A stretch of 23,299 nucleotides of DNA from a virus (lineage: Duplodnaviria; Heunggongvirae; Uroviricota; Caudoviricetes): the IMG/VR virus record IMGVR_UViG_2740892232_000005; one strand, 5' to 3'. This document shows positions 5,631 to 14,102 of this stretch, in pieces. The position numbers were made by a program, and so were the translations under genes. The notes below the pieces were generated by a model that saw nothing but the letters and a program-made list of their open reading frames with translations, had not been told where the DNA came from and ran no database searches. Within the stretch, counting starts at the first letter, position 1. Each line of letters opens with the position of its first letter.

Positions 5631-6194
5631 ATGAGGCTAACCGTGGGTAAGTATCACTGGAAAGTAGAAAAACAGCCTGAGTGGTACGTGAAAGCTGTCA
5701 GAAAAACTATCGCAGCGTTGCCGGGTGGTTACGCTGAAGCAGCTGACTGGCTGGATGTAACAGAGAACGCATTATTTAACCGCCTTCGTGCCGATGGCGA
5801 TCAGATTTTCCCGCTGGGATGGGCAATGGTTTTACAGCGCGCGGCTGGCACTCACTACATTGCGGATGCTGTCGCACAGTCTGCTGGTGGGGTGTTCGTA
5901 TCGCTTCCTGAAATTGAGGAAGTAGAGAACGCCGATATAAACCAGCGCCTGCTGGAAGTCATCGAACAGATCGGGAATTACTCAAAGCAGATTCGTTCGG
6001 CAATCGAAGATGGGGTCGTGGAGCCACACGAGCAGACAGCAATTAATGATGAGTTGTATCTGTCAATTTCGAAGCTCCAAGAGCATGCAGCACTGGTCTA
6101 CAAAATCTTTTGCGCTCCAGAAAAGAGTGACGCCCGCGAGTGTGCAGCTCCGGGCGTCGTGGCGTTTTGTGTCTGTGGAGAAACTAACGCATGA
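5631..6194 (+). CDS. CII-like / YdaT-like regulatory protein (positional call)
   Basis: 187-aa ORF immediately downstream of cro, the position of cII/YdaT-type genes in lambdoid immunity regions; family assignment is from weak recall, not a motif match. Confidence 0.55.
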   Translation: MRLTVGKYHWKVEKQPEWYVKAVRKTIAALPGGYAEAADWLDVTENALFNRLRADGDQIFPLGWAMVLQRAAGTHYIADAVAQSAGGVFVSLPEIEEVENADINQRLLEVIEQIGNYSKQIRSAIEDGVVEPHEQTAINDELYLSISKLQEHAALVYKIFCAPEKSDARECAAPGVVAFCVCGETNA

Positions 6195-7027
6195 ACAGTT
6201 TAACGGCAAATAACCGTTTGTCGCAACAGCTGGTGGTCAGTGTCGCTGAACACCTGTTGTTACGGCATGAATGCAGATTACCAAATTACCTGGCTGTAAG
6301 TAACCACAGAGAACTTTACCTGACTGTGGGGGGCGAGTTGTGCGGGAACTTAACCGCTGGTTTCGTGACGGAAGAGGGCTTTATGTCCATGTTATTCGTT
6401 GGGAACCAGAAACACAGCGCGTTATCTATCTTCGCAAAGACTACCCGCATGAGTGCTTTAGTCCTTTGTGGAAATTCAGGCGTGATTTTGTTGAGTGTGA
6501 AGGACCACCAGCACATTGATTCTGCCATTCCGGGACGTTACACTGTTCAGGCACCTTATAAAGCGGGTGACGGGATTGGCGTCCTGGAAATGTTATCGGC
6601 GATATATGACGCGCCAGCGTCTTTTTTATCGTCTGCGTCTGTGCACACCCAAATTATGGTGGGCTGGACGGGGGCACCGAAAGGTGCGCCGGTTTCCGAT
6701 AACGCCGGTTACGCCAACCCCGTTCAGTTCACCACCAGCGAAATTGGCGTTTCCGGTGGTGAAGGTAATTCACTGTTATCGGAGGCTGCCATCATGGCTA
6801 CTGTCCCAGCCCTCACTCGTCTGAATGATGAAGACTTACATAAACTCAGTTATGTAACAACTGCACTACGTGCTCTGCGCAAGGTAACTCTTTCGGATCC
6901 GCAGGCGCATCAGGTTTTGGTAGAAACCCTTCTTAACTTGCAGGCTGAACGTATTCGTCTGGCGGATAAGGCTAATTTTCATATTCACCGTCTCCTGAAT
7001 ATCAGCGGAGGGCATCGTCATGCTTAA
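6191..7027 (+). CDS. Hypothetical protein (278 aa), unknown function
   Basis: Long uninterrupted ORF; ATGA start/stop overlap with the upstream gene and ATGCTTAA overlap with the downstream gene indicate translational coupling; no motif recognised. Confidence 0.55.
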   Translation: MNSLTANNRLSQQLVVSVAEHLLLRHECRLPNYLAVSNHRELYLTVGGELCGNLTAGFVTEEGFMSMLFVGNQKHSALSIFAKTTRMSALVLCGNSGVILLSVKDHQHIDSAIPGRYTVQAPYKAGDGIGVLEMLSAIYDAPASFLSSASVHTQIMVGWTGAPKGAPVSDNAGYANPVQFTTSEIGVSGGEGNSLLSEAAIMATVPALTRLNDEDLHKLSYVTTALRALRKVTLSDPQAHQVLVETLLNLQAERIRLADKANFHIHRLLNISGGHRHA

Positions 7028-7256
7028 TCCGTTGATCCTCAATATTTGCCGTTTGCTTCAGCGTAAAAAAACATCAATTCCTACAGTTGGGCAGTGGTAC
7101 ACCACGCCTGCAGGGCATGTTCTACGTGTTAGCCTGGTTGACCGTGAATGTCAGAAGGTGATTTGTGAACCGCTGGGCCGTAATTACCGCATCAGTATGC
7201 CGCTTATAGCCTTTTGCTCCGGAAAAAACATGAAGCATCTCGGAGGTGCAGCATGA
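7020..7256 (+). CDS. Small hypothetical protein (78 aa), possibly DUF4222-like
   Basis: ORF coupled at both ends (start overlaps previous stop, stop overlaps the next ATG as ATGA); G-x-W-Y...V-x-V pattern vaguely resembles small prophage DUF4222 proteins (weak recall). Confidence 0.45.
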   Translation: MLNPLILNICRLLQRKKTSIPTVGQWYTTPAGHVLRVSLVDRECQKVICEPLGRNYRISMPLIAFCSGKNMKHLGGAA

Positions 7257-8071
7257 GTATGGAGCTGATGGTTAAAGCGATGAAAATTCGAGTGGGTAAT
7301 CCATTGCGAAAACTGGTTCTGATCAAGCTGGCTGATAATGCCAGCGATCAGGGTGAGTGCTGGCCCAGCTACCAGCATATTGCTGACCAGTGCGAGATTA
7401 GCAAACGTTCTGTGATGAATCATATTGCGGCCCTTTGTGATTCCGGGCTGGTAAAAAAAGTCACCCGGAAAGGTGAAAAAGGTAACTCAAGTAATATCTA
7501 TCTCCTTCATCTTGATGGTGCAGGAGATTCACTAGGGGGTAGTGCAAATAATTCACTATCTGGTGCAGCAAATTCACCAGGTAGTGCAGGAGTTGCACCA
7601 GGGGGTGGTGCAGGAGATTCACCCAGAACCAGTCACTCTTTTGAACCAGTCAAAGAACCAGTCAATGAACCAATAGCTGTTGGTGCATCTGCTGATGAGT
7701 CTGTGCGAGTTCGTTCAAACCGACCGGAATACTCTCCGGAGTTTGAGCAGGCATGGCTGGCATACCCCAAACGTGCTGGTGGCAATTCAAAATCTGCAGC
7801 CTTCAAAGCCTGGAAAGCCCGTTTGAATGAGGGGGTAAAACCCGAAACCATGCTGGAAGGTGTGAAACGCTACGCGGGCTGGGTATCTGCGATGGGTAAC
7901 AGCGGCACACAATTTGTGAAACAGGCTGTCACGTTCTTTGGTCCGGATCGTCATTTCGAAGAATCCTGGGAAGTTCCTGCGGTATCTGCAGCCAGACGCG
8001 AGGACCCGTACTTCAAAGCCAGTTACGACAACGTGGACTACAGCCAGATCCCGGCAGGATTCAGGGGATAA
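7253..8071 (+). CDS. Replication initiator, O-like, with N-terminal HTH and internal iteron-coded linker
   Basis: ATG 7253 with GGAGG RBS; N-terminal helix-turn-helix replication-protein-like segment (KLVLIKLADNASDQGECWPSYQHIADQCEISKRSVMNHI); Gly/Ser/Ala-rich linker encoded by direct DNA repeats (see iterons). Confidence 0.8.
   Translation: MSMELMVKAMKIRVGNPLRKLVLIKLADNASDQGECWPSYQHIADQCEISKRSVMNHIAALCDSGLVKKVTRKGEKGNSSNIYLLHLDGAGDSLGGSANNSLSGAANSPGSAGVAPGGGAGDSPRTSHSFEPVKEPVNEPIAVGASADESVRVRSNRPEYSPEFEQAWLAYPKRAGGNSKSAAFKAWKARLNEGVKPETMLEGVKRYAGWVSAMGNSGTQFVKQAVTFFGPDRHFEESWEVPAVSAARREDPYFKASYDNVDYSQIPAGFRG
7517..7622 (+). repeat. Putative origin iterons: five copies of a 16-nt motif (GGTGCAGGAGATTCAC-like) at 21-24 bp spacing inside the O-like gene
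   Basis: Copies at 7517, 7541, 7562, 7583 and 7607 read directly; followed by three GAACCAGTCA repeats at 7628-7660; lambdoid ori sequences lie inside the O gene (established). Confidence 0.55.
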
Positions 8072-8073
8072 TC

Positions 8074-8562
8074 ATGAGTCTTTTGAATGAAGTTCAGAAA
8101 TTCATTGAAGCCCATCCGGGGTGTACTTCCGGAGACATTGCGGATGCTTTTGCAGGTTACTCACGGCAGCGCGTTCTGCAGTCTGCAAGCAAGTTACGTC
8201 AGAGTGGGCGTGTGGCTCACCGTTGTGAAGGATATACACGCAGACATTTCCCGCGCCTGACTGAGAGAGCGCAGGAGCCGGAACCACAACCAGTTCGTGA
8301 AACCAGACCTGTGCGCAATTTCTATGTCGGCACTAACGATCCCCGGGTGATTTTGTGCCTGACCCGCCAGGCTGAAGAACTGGAGTCCAGGGGCTTATAC
8401 CGTCGTGCTGCAACCGTGTGGATGGCGGCATTCCGTGAAAGCCACTCCCAGCCAGAACGAAACAATTTTCTGGCACGTCGTGAGCGGTGCTTACGGAAAA
8501 GCAGCAAGCGCGCTGTATCGGGTGATGAGTGGTATCTGTCAGGGAATTACGTGGGGGCTTAA
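8074..8562 (+). CDS. YfdN-like prophage protein (162 aa), possible PerC-family regulator
   Basis: ATG 8074 with purine-rich RBS; size matches CPS-53 YfdN; the ESRGLYRRAATVWMAAF segment resembles the conserved PerC/Pch motif (from memory). Confidence 0.55.
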   Translation: MSLLNEVQKFIEAHPGCTSGDIADAFAGYSRQRVLQSASKLRQSGRVAHRCEGYTRRHFPRLTERAQEPEPQPVRETRPVRNFYVGTNDPRVILCLTRQAEELESRGLYRRAATVWMAAFRESHSQPERNNFLARRERCLRKSSKRAVSGDEWYLSGNYVGA

Positions 8563-13306: not shown

Positions 13307-13605
13307 AAAATTCCTTAATACTGATAACTTGGCGCACTATACACACGTTCCTGAAGAAAGCTATAGTTTTTTGATGGGGTTGAAGATGGCTGGATGTCTA
13401 AAATAAACATTGCTTCATATGTTCAACTATGCGTTAATGATTGCGTCGGTTTGAAGAACAGACGATATACGAAGTAGTTTACTAAAGCAGTTCTCATTTC
13501 AGGTGTTATTCACTTATTCCTTCTTTGAGTCTCTCCAATTAAGTACGAAGTCGTTTCTGTTATACAAGCCATTTATGCCGAAAGGCTCAAGTTAAGGAAT
13601 GTAGA

Positions 13606-13821
13606 ATGTCAAATAAAATGACTGGTTTAGTAAAATGGTTTAACGCTGATAAAGGTTTTGGCTTTATTTCTCCTGTTGATGGTAGTAAAGATGTGTTTGT
13701 GCATTTTTCTGCGATTCAGAATGATAATTATCGAACCTTATTTGAAGGTCAAAAGGTTACCTTCTCTGTAGAGAGTGGTGCTAAAGGTCCTGCAGCAGCA
13801 AATGTCATAATTACTGATTAA
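13606..13821 (+). CDS. cspB: Cold-shock protein, CspB/CspG/CspI type (71 aa)
   Basis: [38 protein letters not shown] with RNP1/RNP2 motifs; AAGGA RBS; long upstream leader typical of csp genes. Confidence 0.92.
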
Positions 13822-14102
13822 AATTCATAGTTTGTCTGTATACGATAACGAAGAAGGCTGATGCCTGAGTGGAGATACAGACAGAGTGGTGAATATTGGA
13901 TCTCTTTAATAAATAGTAAGGAGGTCCAATACATGAAACAATGGCCAGCATATTTGGCAATAACTTAATCAGGAAAAGTATGCTAACCATTGTGGTGAAG
14001 TGCAGGTTTGCTGCATGAATAGTTTTACAGCAGAAGCTAACTGCTGGCATAGCAAAACAAAGTGCGTAAGTGGATGACTCCCACAAAAAGTACCACAATA
14101 TT

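What the first reader, a model, noticed from the sequence alone, without database searches (positions are those of the whole stretch)
6191..7256. Two translationally coupled genes of unknown function between the CII-like gene and the replication initiator
Seen: a 278-aa ORF and a 78-aa ORF, each joined to its neighbours by overlapping stop/start codons (ATGA, ATGCTTAA). Neither carries a motif I can place (no Walker A, no nuclease or HTH signature in the 278-aa protein). In lambda this slot lies between cII and O; helicase-loader (P/DnaC-like) genes are not evident anywhere in the window, so these could be replication accessory factors or an embedded accessory module.
Basis: inference. Interest (0 to 1): 0.45.

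Follow-up and report, generated by a model that had tools for sequence, protein, structure and literature searches.

The report
RNA immunity cassette hidden in ORF
The "278-aa gene" is not one protein gene: its reading frame runs over a nested small regulator gene (RgdR/DUF4222 family) and a phage-P4-type antisense-RNA immunity cassette that probably controls the small ORFs and the replication gene behind it. The 78-aa gene is a real small barrel protein of unknown function.

Summary
Both ORFs and their overlapping stop/start codons are present as described. The window is an SfV/e14-like E. coli prophage.

ORF278 (SfV orf37, annotated "ash family protein") is a composite frame with four parts:
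- **6191-~6520:** homologous to e14 ymfM (the SfiC cell-division-inhibitor locus). Nested in its -1 frame is a 59-aa DUF4222/RgdR-family gene (6340-6519). Only that nested frame shows purifying selection (dN/dS 0.15-0.20).
- **6516-6793:** a P4-type immunity RNA cassette. It holds a promoter-like site, an IsrK/seqA-like sRNA with terminator (6551-6627) and a C4/CI-like antisense RNA (6652-6739). The C4 loop is complementary to seqA (6592-6599) and to seqC, which overlaps the Shine-Dalgarno at 6775-6785.
- **The Pfam "Ash" match** is the translation of this cassette, as it is for P4's old "cI protein" ORF. It shows no codon periodicity.
- **6794-7027:** a 77-aa ORF with its own ribosome-binding site, the likely antisense target. 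Sister phages carry Rha antirepressor genes there.

ORF78 is a conserved SH3/Tudor-like barrel, a probable distant DUF4222 relative, always placed directly before the replication initiator.

Verdict: a new member of a known kind. Two things remain unexplained or open: frames kept free of stops without amino-acid constraint, and which product at ymfM is the real SfiC inhibitor.

The parts
6191..7027 (+). ORF278 (SfV orf37; RefSeq 'ash family protein'): a composite stop-free reading frame, not one conventional gene
   Evidence: ORF list. 97% identical to SfV orf36-39 and 100% to E. coli YDC107. Pfam Phage_ASH at aa 117-210. PGAP splits the region into DUF4222 6340-6519 and 'ash' 6482-7027.
6191..6339 (+). 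5' part homologous to e14 ymfM (SfiC locus). The start is coupled to the ymfL stop, with a GGAG 10 nt upstream
   Evidence: Same position and frame as K-12 ymfM. phrog_1170 E 7.5e-9. In 20 related loci this part has dN/dS 0.26 in this frame against about 1.3 in the others. In the window lineage selection is relaxed, pN/pS 0.78.
6340..6519 (+). Nested 59-aa gene in the -1 frame: DUF4222 / RgdR family, GTG start, G-rich Shine-Dalgarno-like stretch upstream
   Evidence: Pfam DUF4222 E 1.1e-13. Homologues at 61-95% identity across Enterobacterales. dN/dS 0.15 and 0.20 in this frame, against 1.3-2.0 in the other two. 41% identity to RgdR over 34 aa. AF2 pLDDT 84.8, SH3/Tudor-like barrel.
6516..6544 (+). 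Promoter-like site for the IsrK-like RNA: -35 TTGATT (6516-6521), 17-nt spacer, -10 TACACT (6539-6544), start near 6551
   Evidence: Read from the sequence. The hexamers are near-invariant in 58 diverged loci. Relatives have TTGACA-17/18-TATATT at the same place. Homology with stand-alone cassettes begins exactly at the -35. It falls below the simple scan's threshold at 8 of 12 matches. Inferred, not shown.
6551..6627 (+). IsrK / P4 seqA-like sRNA with intrinsic terminator (hairpin 6608-6621 plus U-run); seqA site GTTATCGG at 6592-6599
   Evidence: Rfam RF01394 55.4 bits against gathering score 50, full length. Terminator scan. Present in all 'Ash' loci and in P4, absent from the four e14-type loci scanned. 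seqA is complementary to the C4 loop.
6652..6739 (+). C4 / P4 CI-like antisense RNA; specificity loop CCGATAAC at 6696-6703
   Evidence: Rfam RF01695 82.8 bits against gathering score 45, positions 1-87 of 87. MFE -47.8 kcal/mol, z -5.1, same fold as the Rfam consensus. Covariation: C4 helices 99.5-100% paired, 124 double-change cells against 44 in shuffles, 0 of 500.
6775..6785 (+). seqC-like target GTTATCGG overlapping the Shine-Dalgarno GGAGG of the 77-aa ORF
   Evidence: Complementary to the C4 loop. It covaries with the loop and seqA between window and SfV (GTTATCGG/CCGATAAC against GATCAAGG/CCTTGATC) and across 37 loop types (mean match 8.4 nt against 5.0 in controls).
6794..7027 (+). 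orf77: 77-aa predicted helical ORF with its own SD (GGAGG, 8-nt spacer), probable regulated target of the cassette. It is in frame with ORF278
   Evidence: SD and ATG at a conserved offset after C4 in 77 loci. The same slot holds Rha/Bro-type antirepressor genes in sister phages. No Pfam hit. phrog_4908/3960 C-terminal part.
7020..7256 (+). ORF78 (SfV orf38; phrog_1153): N-terminal helix plus SH3/Tudor-like barrel, probable distant DUF4222 relative. Its stop overlaps the replication gene start
5631..6194 (+). Context: ymfL (CII/CP76-like), the upstream coupled gene
   Evidence: Pfam Phage_CP76 and NCBIfam YmfL.
7253..8071 (+). Context: replication initiator (HTH_36 / DnaD-like), last gene of the coupled chain
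   Evidence: Pfam and PHROG hits.

Best explanation
The interval holds three functional layers written over one long stop-free frame.

(1) A nested 59-aa DUF4222/RgdR-family gene (6340-6519) lies in the -1 frame of the ymfM-homologous 5' part.

(2) A P4-type immunity RNA cassette follows. A promoter-like site drives an IsrK/seqA-like sRNA that ends at an intrinsic terminator. Read-through transcripts would carry the C4/CI-like RNA. The C4 loop (CCGATAAC) pairs with seqA inside IsrK and with seqC, which overlaps the Shine-Dalgarno of the 77-aa ORF at 6794.

(3) orf77, ORF78 and the replication initiator are chained by overlapping stop/start codons.

Most likely mechanism, by analogy with P4 CI, P1 c4 and Gifsy-1 IsrK/STnc1160: in the lysogen the C4-like RNA occludes the orf77 ribosome-binding site. 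That blocks translation of orf77 and of the coupled ORF78 and rep genes, and favours premature termination. The result would be an RNA-based, type-specific second layer of immunity over the replication module.

The 'Ash domain' is the conceptual translation of this cassette, not a folded protein domain under amino-acid selection.

Shown here: the RNA family matches, RNA covariation, three-site complementarity, frame-specific selection and synteny. Inferred: the promoter, RNA processing, repression of orf77/ORF78/rep, and any role of ribosomes that read through the ORF278 frame.
For: - **RNA family matches.** isrK and C4 score above gathering score at full length. The same pair occurs in all six other 'Ash' loci and in P4, and in none of the four e14-type loci scanned.
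- **P4 parallel.** P4's obsolete 'cI protein' ORF hits Pfam Phage_ASH (E 4e-16) and contains the C4 hit.
- **Fold and covariation.** The C4 fold has z -5.1. Covariation gives 124 double-change cells against 44 in shuffles, 0 of 500, and slid controls give 4-22.
- **Three-site complementarity.** 37 distinct loop sequences each match seqA and seqC by 8-11 nt (means 7.1 and 8.4 nt against 5.0 in controls). Window and SfV differ at all three sites in a compensatory way.
- **Terminator.** An intrinsic terminator lies inside the ORF.
- **No protein-type constraint.** Among 58 loci with median 66% identity, entropy at codon positions 1/2/3 is 0.715/0.733/0.731. dN/dS is 0.77-0.96 in all three frames.
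- **RNAs kept where the frame is broken.** 36 related loci keep the RNAs but carry 1-6 stops in the Ash frame.
- **Nested gene.** Pfam E 1e-13, dN/dS 0.15-0.20 only in that frame, and a conserved start with SD-like sequence in 34 loci.
- **Literature.** CI RNA pairs with seqA and seqC, and IsrK is a structural homologue of seqA (PMC4825925). [quoted passage not shown]
Against: - No expression data exist for this phage.
- The promoter matches only 8 of 12 consensus positions and was not called by the scan.
- The window's IsrK copy scores only 5 bits above threshold, has a broken first base pair, and its MFE is not exceptional (z -0.9).
- The Ash frame is stop-free in 58 of 94 unique loci, with a conserved ATG position in 34 of them. 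It is therefore probably translated, and a protein role cannot be excluded.
- In Gifsy-1 the short IsrK RNA activates rather than represses the downstream ORF (PMC4825925), so the sign of regulation here is uncertain.
- Control of rep through translational coupling is an inference from gene overlaps alone.
Confidence: 0.8

Rival explanations
1. ORF278 is a genuine 278-aa 'Ash family' transcriptional regulator. The Ash domain is a real protein domain, and the RNA-model hits are incidental or secondary.
For: Pfam Phage_ASH E 2.9e-17 and PHROG 'transcriptional regulator' labels. The frame is stop-free in 58 of 94 unique cassette loci while the other frames carry 2.6-4.0 stops. An ATG sits 52-58 codons upstream in 34 loci. 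The frame is often in phase with the downstream Rha-type domain.
Against: There is no third-position excess of variation, and dN/dS is about 0.8-1 in every frame. Conserved blocks coincide with promoter hexamers, RNA helices and a terminator. 36 loci keep the RNAs with 1-6 stops in this frame. The founding member of the family, the P4 'cI' ORF, overlaps the CI RNA gene, and CI RNA is the immunity factor in P4 (PMC4825925). In 1.84 billion representatives the Ash stretch sits at arbitrary positions in ORFs of 50-976 aa, up to 8 times.
Confidence: 0.1
2. ORF278 is translated, but only as a 'conduit'. Ribosomes coming from ymfL on pR transcripts read through the nested gene, the IsrK terminator and the C4 target site. 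This couples ymfL to orf77, ORF78 and rep and overrides the RNA block during lytic growth. The peptide sequence itself is irrelevant. This extends the best explanation rather than excluding it.
For: The YmfM/ORF278 frame has no stops across DUF4222 in 34 of 34 loci, although synonymous reshuffling predicts about 2.3 stops and P(open) of about 0.03. In most e14-type loci that frame ends about 9 nt before the rep ATG. The Ash frame is kept open in 18 clusters at 90% identity without codon periodicity. Cassettes with strong consensus promoters lack the open frame. There is an unbroken chain of overlapping stop/start codons.
Against: This is purely comparative. The loci are related by descent, so the counts are not independent. 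No transcript or ribosome data exist. An intrinsic terminator inside a translated frame would still act on part of the transcripts. The genomic context of the loci without the open frame was not examined.
Confidence: 0.35
3. ORF278 and ORF78 are replication accessory proteins, such as a helicase loader or an analogue of lambda P.
For: The position between the CII-like gene and the replication initiator. ORF78-like and DUF4222 genes always abut a replication gene: e14-type loci, the window, and RgdR before a DUF927 primase.
Against: No Walker, AAA, DnaC or lambda-P similarity in Pfam, NCBIfam, PHROGs or PDB sequences. The only characterised DUF4222 protein, RgdR, is a transcription regulator (PMC3378721). 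The replication protein itself carries DnaD-like and 'helicase loader' PHROG matches.
Confidence: 0.1

Closest known systems
Satellite phage P4 immunity region (seqA - CI RNA - seqC, upstream of the alpha replication operon)
   Same: The same two Rfam families occur in the same order (isrK = seqA, C4 = CI). The loop is complementary to one upstream and one downstream site. The downstream site lies at the start of the first translated ORF, and replication genes follow. A conceptual ORF over the RNA gives the Pfam Ash match in both.
   Different: Here the cassette sits inside the early-right operon of a lambdoid (SfV/e14-like) prophage, downstream of a CI/Cro/CII-like protein switch. It is spanned by a long frame fused to a ymfM homologue. 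The first target ORF is a 77-aa protein followed by a DUF4222-like gene and a DnaD-like initiator, not kil/eta and the alpha primase.
Gifsy-1 isrK - STnc1160/orf45 - anrP locus (Hershko-Shalev 2016, PMC4825925)
   Same: An IsrK sRNA with terminator, read-through into a C4-like stable RNA overlapped by a short translated ORF (orf45; the ATG at 6656 here is the equivalent start), then a downstream gene reached by translational coupling.
   Different: In Gifsy-1 the downstream gene is an antirepressor (AnrP), and short IsrK activates translation in trans. Here the antirepressor is replaced by orf77, and the orf45-like frame has no stop and runs on into orf77. The direction of regulation was not tested.
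Phage P1/P7 immI (c4 RNA - icd - ant)
   Same: An antisense RNA of the same Rfam family whose loops pair with sites on its own transcript. One site covers the ribosome-binding site of a small leader ORF (icd, 73 aa) that is translationally coupled to the next gene (own knowledge of the P1 literature).
   Different: P1 has no IsrK/seqA-type sRNA hit here, and its final target is the antirepressor Ant. No sequence similarity between orf77 and Icd was tested.
RgdR (ECs1581, EHEC prophage CP-933C/Sp7), the only characterised DUF4222 protein
   Same: The nested 59-aa gene hits the same Pfam family and is 41% identical to the RgdR core. Both genes end overlapping a replication gene.
   Different: RgdR is 99 aa with N- and C-terminal extensions and an RGD motif important for LEE activation. 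The window protein has RDGRG at that place. No LEE or motility function can be inferred.
e14 ymfM (SfiC cell-division inhibitor, Ansari 2020)
   Same: Same position after ymfL, same start (MNSLT...), same frame, and the same nested DUF4222 ORF.
   Different: e14 YmfM stops after 112 codons, just before the replication gene. In the window the frame reads on for 278 codons. The N-terminal 50 residues differ almost completely. Which product causes filamentation has not been resolved by frame-specific mutants.

Membership tests
C4 antisense RNA (Rfam RF01695; P1 c4 / P4 CI) | Covariance-model score at or above the curated gathering score, full length | tested here: met
   82.8 bits against 45, model positions 1-87 of 87, E 1.8e-16
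C4 antisense RNA (Rfam RF01695; P1 c4 / P4 CI) | Long closing helix enclosing two hairpins, supported by compensatory changes | tested here: met
   C4 helices 99.5-100% paired in 40 sequences, 8 pairs with changes on both sides, 124 double-change cells against 44 in shuffles (0 of 500), slid controls 4-22. The MFE equals the consensus fold, z -5.1
C4 antisense RNA (Rfam RF01695; P1 c4 / P4 CI) | Loop complementary to sites on its own transcript, one overlapping the RBS of the downstream ORF | tested here: met
   Loop 6696-6703 against seqA 6592-6599 and seqC/SD 6775-6785. The three sites covary across 37 loop types and between window and SfV
C4 antisense RNA (Rfam RF01695; P1 c4 / P4 CI) | Stable processed RNA that represses downstream genes and confers immunity | not testable with these tools
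   Needs Northern blots or RNA-seq and reporter or superinfection assays
isrK / P4 seqA sRNA (Rfam RF01394) | Covariance-model score at or above the gathering score; ends at an intrinsic terminator | tested here: met
   55.4 bits against 50, positions 1-77 of 77. Hairpin 6608-6621 plus T-run. Marginal: the first pair of helix 1 is broken and the MFE z is -0.9
isrK / P4 seqA sRNA (Rfam RF01394) | Own promoter directly upstream | tested here: inconclusive
   TTGATT-17-TACACT, 8 of 12 matches, not called by the scan. The hexamers are conserved and relatives carry TTGACA/TATATT at the same place
Pfam Phage_ASH (PF10554), taken as a protein domain | HMM score above the gathering score | tested here: met
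   63.5 bits against 26, aa 117-210
Pfam Phage_ASH (PF10554), taken as a protein domain | Evolves as protein-coding sequence: excess third-position change and dN/dS well below 1 in its frame only | tested here: not met
   Entropy at codon positions 0.715/0.733/0.731. dN/dS 0.86/0.96/0.77 in the three frames. 36 related loci have 1-6 stops in this frame
DUF4222 / RgdR family (nested ORF 6340-6519) | HMM score above the gathering score | tested here: met
   50.9 bits against 27, E 1.1e-13. RgdR itself scores E 2.1e-23
DUF4222 / RgdR family (nested ORF 6340-6519) | Frame-specific purifying selection and a conserved start | tested here: met
   dN/dS 0.15 and 0.20 against 1.3-2.0 in the other frames. 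A start codon (mostly ATG, otherwise GTG or TTG) with an SD-like sequence in 34 loci
DUF4222 / RgdR family (nested ORF 6340-6519) | Regulatory activity (LEE1 activation, motility repression, DNA binding) | not testable with these tools
   Known only for RgdR (PMC3378721)
YmfM / SfiC cell-division inhibitor (5' part of ORF278) | Homology and synteny with e14 ymfM | tested here: met
   phrog_1170 E 7.5e-9 over aa 48-98. Same start, frame and neighbours
YmfM / SfiC cell-division inhibitor (5' part of ORF278) | Amino-acid-level conservation of the YmfM frame | tested here: not met
   In the overlap, dN/dS is 1.3-1.6, like the third frame. In the 5' unique part, pN/pS is 0.78 in the window lineage, against 0.34 in another lineage
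DUF4222 (ORF78 as a member) | HMM score above the gathering score | tested here: not met
   No Pfam hit for ORF78. 5 of 19 relatives hit DUF4222 at best E 0.008. hhalign E 0.0067 with probability 5.7%. phrog_1153 is hit by the DUF4222 protein at E 0.008
DUF4222 (ORF78 as a member) | Same fold and same genomic placement | tested here: inconclusive
Helicase loader / lambda P / DnaC-like | Sequence similarity or a Walker-type ATPase motif | tested here: not met
   No such hit in Pfam, NCBIfam, PHROGs or PDB sequences for ORF278 or ORF78

The most novel reading that the evidence does not exclude
Two linked ideas.

(a) Long stop-free frames such as ORF278 and 'Ash' ORFs in general may be maintained only as ribosome conduits. 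They would carry translation across a nested gene and an RNA immunity cassette. Transcripts from the early promoter would then escape the IsrK terminator and the C4 block, while cassette-promoter transcripts stay repressed. This would be translation used as an immunity bypass.

(b) The SOS-inducible division inhibitor SfiC, currently assigned to e14 ymfM, may really be the nested, strongly conserved DUF4222/RgdR-family protein. That would make DUF4222 a family of small barrel proteins that phages place in front of replication genes to reprogram the host.
Probability: 0.25. Interest if true: 0.7.

Novelty: new member of a known kind. Interest (0 to 1): 0.5.

Why it matters
- **Annotation.** Thousands of E. 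coli and Salmonella prophages carry "ash family protein" or "transcriptional regulator" labels over what is a P4-type antisense-RNA immunity cassette. Phage records such as SfV do not annotate the nested RgdR-family gene.
- **Phage biology.** SfV/e14-like lambdoid phages appear to have an RNA-based, type-specific control layer directly upstream of their replication module. I found 37 loop specificities.
- **A testable doubt about SfiC.** The ymfM frame is not conserved where the nested DUF4222 frame is. Simple frame-specific mutants could settle which product blocks cell division.
- **An open question on overlapping frames.** The stop-free but unconstrained frames are a clean case for studying selection on translation itself rather than on a protein.

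Tried and rejected
- **Programmed -1 frameshift from the ORF278 frame into DUF4222:** rejected. All 34 loci keep their own start codon and SD-like sequence. In L006 and L011 a stop in the DUF frame lies 0-6 nt before the start, leaving no room for a shift site, and no slippery heptamer was seen.
- **Helicase loader or replication accessory homology:** none found.
- **Defence system:** no PADLOC hit.
- **Solved structures by sequence:** nothing significant for ORF278, DUF4222 or ORF78.
- **dN/dS on orf77:** not informative, because the nine available copies are nearly identical.
- **Structure prediction of ORF278:** not attempted. The homologues I could use were at least 90% identical and only two prediction jobs were allowed. 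They went to DUF4222 and ORF78.
- **afdb50 fold library:** unavailable.
- **EDL933 record NC_002655:** not in the collection. Sakai was used instead.
- **Thermodynamic support for the IsrK copy:** weak, z -0.9.
- **MAFFT alignment of the IsrK terminator helix:** it mis-registers two terminator variants, so the 60% pairing for that helix is an alignment artefact and not evidence against the helix.
- **Literature searches:** searches for DUF4222 and the Ash family gave only RgdR and passing mentions.
Full report
**1. Observation**

The window carries ORF 6191-7027 (+, 278 aa) and ORF 7020-7256 (+, 78 aa).
- ATGA with the upstream gene.
- ATGCTTAA between the two ORFs.
- ATGA between ORF78 and the replication gene, whose likely start is the ATG at 7253.

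Each start has a Shine-Dalgarno-like sequence: GGAG 10 nt before 6191, GGAGGG 8 nt before 7020, and GGAGG 7 nt before 7253 (read).

The region is 100% identical to the E. coli YDC107 chromosome and 97% identical to phage SfV orf36-orf39. The neighbours are ymfK/ymfT/ymfL-like genes upstream and a DnaD/HTH_36-type replication initiator downstream. The observation therefore holds. The statement that no motif can be placed does not: ORF278 hits Pfam Phage_ASH at aa 117-210 (E 2.9e-17).

**2. A gene nested in another frame**

RefSeq annotation of the identical strain does not call the 278-aa ORF. It calls a 'DUF4222 domain-containing protein' at window 6340-6519 and an 'ash family protein' from 6482. 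The 59-aa ORF at 6340-6519 lies in the -1 frame of ORF278 and hits Pfam DUF4222 at E 1.1e-13.

Homologues at 61-95% identity occur across Escherichia, Salmonella, Klebsiella, Citrobacter, Kluyvera, Kosakonia and Pantoea. I fetched 34 genomic loci. Most show this order:
- ymfL.
- An ATGA-coupled ymfM-like ORF of roughly 110-150 codons, with the DUF4222 gene nested in its 3' half.
- The replication gene, whose ATG lies about 9 nt after the ymfM-frame stop.

The E. coli K-12 e14 prophage has the same layout. Its ymfM is annotated 'cell division inhibitor' and the nested ORF is not annotated.

Nei-Gojobori counts pooled over 20 loci show where selection acts:

| Region | ymfM frame | DUF4222 frame | Third frame |
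|---|---|---|---|
| 5' unique part | 0.26 | 1.34 | 1.27 |
| Overlap | 1.56 | 0.15 | 1.66 |

The window lineage gives the same answer in the overlap: 0.20 for DUF4222 against 1.32 and 2.04.

So residues about 50-110 of ORF278 are not under amino-acid selection, and the nested protein is. In the window lineage even the first 50 codons look relaxed (pN/pS 0.78).

A programmed frameshift is unlikely. Every locus keeps its own start codon, and in two loci a stop lies 0-6 nt before that start.

**3. What the nested protein is**

The only characterised DUF4222 protein is RgdR (ECs1581) of the EHEC prophage CP-933C. It is a 99-aa activator of LEE1/type III secretion and a repressor of motility, with non-specific DNA binding (PMC10877973, PMC3378721). 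RgdR hits the family at E 2.1e-23 and is 41% identical to the window protein over its conserved core. Its gene also ends overlapping a replication gene, a DUF927 primase.

**4. The 'Ash domain' is an RNA cassette**

Rfam finds two full-length matches above gathering score on the + strand inside ORF278:
- isrK (RF01394) at 6551-6627, 55.4 bits against a gathering score of 50.
- C4 antisense RNA (RF01695) at 6652-6739, 82.8 bits against a gathering score of 45.

A terminator-like hairpin with a T-run at 6608-6627 is the end of the IsrK-like RNA. The 88-nt C4 element folds into the Rfam consensus at -47.8 kcal/mol, z -5.1.

Distribution supports the link to 'Ash'. Every other 'Ash'-bearing locus examined has the same pair, and the four e14-type loci scanned have neither. 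In phage P4, the old 'cI gene product' ORF hits Pfam Phage_ASH (E 4e-16) and contains the C4 hit, with the isrK hit just upstream. In P4 the immunity factor is the CI RNA, which pairs with seqA and seqC, and IsrK is a structural homologue of seqA (PMC4825925). [quoted passage not shown]

**5. Comparative tests of the cassette**

A pattern scan of viral contigs gave 120 loci and 94 unique cassette sequences.

- **Covariation.** In 40 diverse sequences the three C4 helices are 99.5-100% paired. There are 124 cells with changes on both sides, against 44 in shuffles (0 of 500) and 4-22 in slid controls.
- **Three-site complementarity.** The loop of the second C4 hairpin occurs in 37 different versions. 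In most, both a site inside the IsrK-like RNA and a site just before the downstream start codon are complementary to it over 8-11 nt. The means are 7.1 and 8.4 nt, against 5.0 when loops are paired with foreign loci.
- **The sites in the window.** They are GTTATCGG (6592-6599), CCGATAAC (6696-6703) and GTTATCGGAGG (6775-6785). The last overlaps the Shine-Dalgarno of the ATG at 6794. SfV has GATCAAGG / CCTTGATC / GATCAAGGAGG at the same places. This is the seqA / seqB / seqC logic of P4 and the a/b logic of P1 c4.
- **Promoter and cassette boundary.** Homology between the window and stand-alone cassettes begins exactly at TTGATT (6516), which with TACACT (6539) forms a promoter-like site 7 nt before the IsrK start. 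Relatives have TTGACA and TATATT there. The promoter is inferred, not shown.

**6. Is an Ash protein made?**

Among 58 unique sequences with an open Ash frame (median pairwise identity 66%), variability is the same at all three codon positions (0.715/0.733/0.731). dN/dS is 0.77-0.96 in all frames. Another 36 loci keep the RNAs but have 1-6 stops in that frame. In a library of 1.84 billion representatives, the Ash stretch appears at arbitrary positions in ORFs of 50-976 aa, up to eight times. So there is no sign of a protein domain under amino-acid selection.

The frame nevertheless looks maintained. It has no stops in 58 of 94 loci (18 clusters at 90% identity), against 2.6-4.0 stops in the other frames. 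An ATG sits at a constant place just upstream of the -35 in 34 of them.

The ymfM/ORF278 frame behaves the same way. It is stop-free across DUF4222 in 34 of 34 loci, although reshuffling synonymous DUF4222 codons predicts about 2.3 stops and P(open) of about 0.03.

I cannot explain this with certainty. The best idea is that translation through these stretches matters and the peptide does not. I list this as a rival or extension at 0.35. These loci are related by descent, so the counts overstate independence.

**7. The real protein genes at the 3' end**

After the cassette comes an ATG at 6794 with GGAGG 8 nt upstream. It opens a 77-aa ORF to 7027 that is in frame with ORF278. Sister phages carry Rha/Bro-type antirepressor genes of 120-185 aa or other small ORFs in exactly this slot. 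orf77 has no Pfam hit.

ORF78 (phrog_1153) is conserved at 47-95% identity. It sits immediately before the replication initiator whether the preceding gene is orf77 or an Rha-type gene.

ORF78 has weak sequence links to DUF4222:
- hhalign E 0.0067.
- 5 of 19 relatives hit the Pfam model, best E 0.008.
- The DUF4222 protein hits phrog_1153 at E 0.008.

**8. Mechanism**

Shown here:
- Two RNA genes of the P4/P1/Gifsy-1 immunity type.
- Their covariation.
- Three-site complementarity with the target at the orf77 ribosome-binding site.
- An unbroken chain of overlapping genes down to the replication initiator.

Inferred by analogy with P4, P1 and Gifsy-1: the C4-like RNA, made from the cassette promoter by read-through and processing, blocks orf77 translation. 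Through coupling and polarity it would also block ORF78 and rep. That would give a type-specific RNA layer of immunity over replication.

The sign of regulation is uncertain, because short IsrK activates its target in Gifsy-1. The window's IsrK copy is marginal: 5 bits above threshold, a broken first pair, and z -0.9.

**9. Comparison, novelty and score**

The cassette is a new member of a known kind (P4 CI/seqA, P1 c4, Gifsy-1 IsrK/STnc1160). That such RNAs lie inside 'Bro network' ORFs has been noted before (PMC10111431).

In the papers I could search, I found no statement of the following:
- That ymfM-type ORFs carry a nested RgdR-family gene that is the only conserved frame in the overlap.
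- That both long frames avoid stops without coding constraint.
- That the filamentation assigned to ymfM was shown only with the whole ORF cloned, with no frame-specific mutants. The active product could therefore be the nested protein.

The last point is a directly testable question. Interest is 0.5: the main finding is explained by known systems, with one real annotation correction and two unexplained, testable side observations.

Noticed in passing
window 13445-13884 (+): Rfam cspA thermoregulator match (156.7 bits against gathering score 78). This suggests a cold-shock-protein gene with its long 5' UTR inside the prophage.
   Followed up: no
L005 3002-3181 (NC_000913.3 1204001-1204180): E. 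coli K-12 e14 carries an unannotated DUF4222 ORF nested in ymfM. It has a TTG start and GAAGGAG 10 nt upstream. The published filamentation experiments cloned the whole ymfM ORF, so they do not separate the two products.
   Followed up: partly
L042 23305-23604 and 23601-25733 (E. coli O157 Sakai, prophage Sp7): The stop of the rgdR gene (ECs_1581, DUF4222) overlaps the start of a DUF927 primase gene. DUF4222-type genes therefore sit directly before replication genes in three different element types.
   Followed up: partly
L074 (IMG/VR UViG 2671181028_000005), reverse strand, C4 starts at 1544, 2200 and 2856: Three tandem IsrK-C4 cassettes 656 nt apart with different specificity loops, apparently inside one long open frame. 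Compare representative P0219: 821 aa with three 'Ash' stretches.
   Followed up: no
L163 8168-8584 (-), phage P4: The historical 'cI gene product (AA 1-137)' ORF is still annotated as a transcriptional repressor. It matches Pfam Phage_ASH and contains the Rfam C4 (CI RNA) hit at 8420-8507.
   Followed up: yes
window 6570: The window and strain YDC107 have A where all 39 other aligned cassettes have C. This breaks the first base pair of IsrK helix 1. The isrK score is 55.4 bits here against 56-67 in relatives.
   Followed up: partly
window 7253-8071: The C-terminal half of the replication protein matches PHROGs labelled 'DnaD-like helicase loader' and 'primosomal protein' (phrog_1701, phrog_9327).
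   Followed up: no
viral loci with stops in the Ash frame (e.g. L046, L057, L070): Cassettes without the open 'Ash' frame have near-consensus promoters (TTGACA, 17-18 nt, TATATT/TATAGT). They are followed by different Bro-type genes (MTTQISVE..., Bro-N-like). Their genomic context (P4-like or PICI against lambdoid) was not checked.
   Followed up: no
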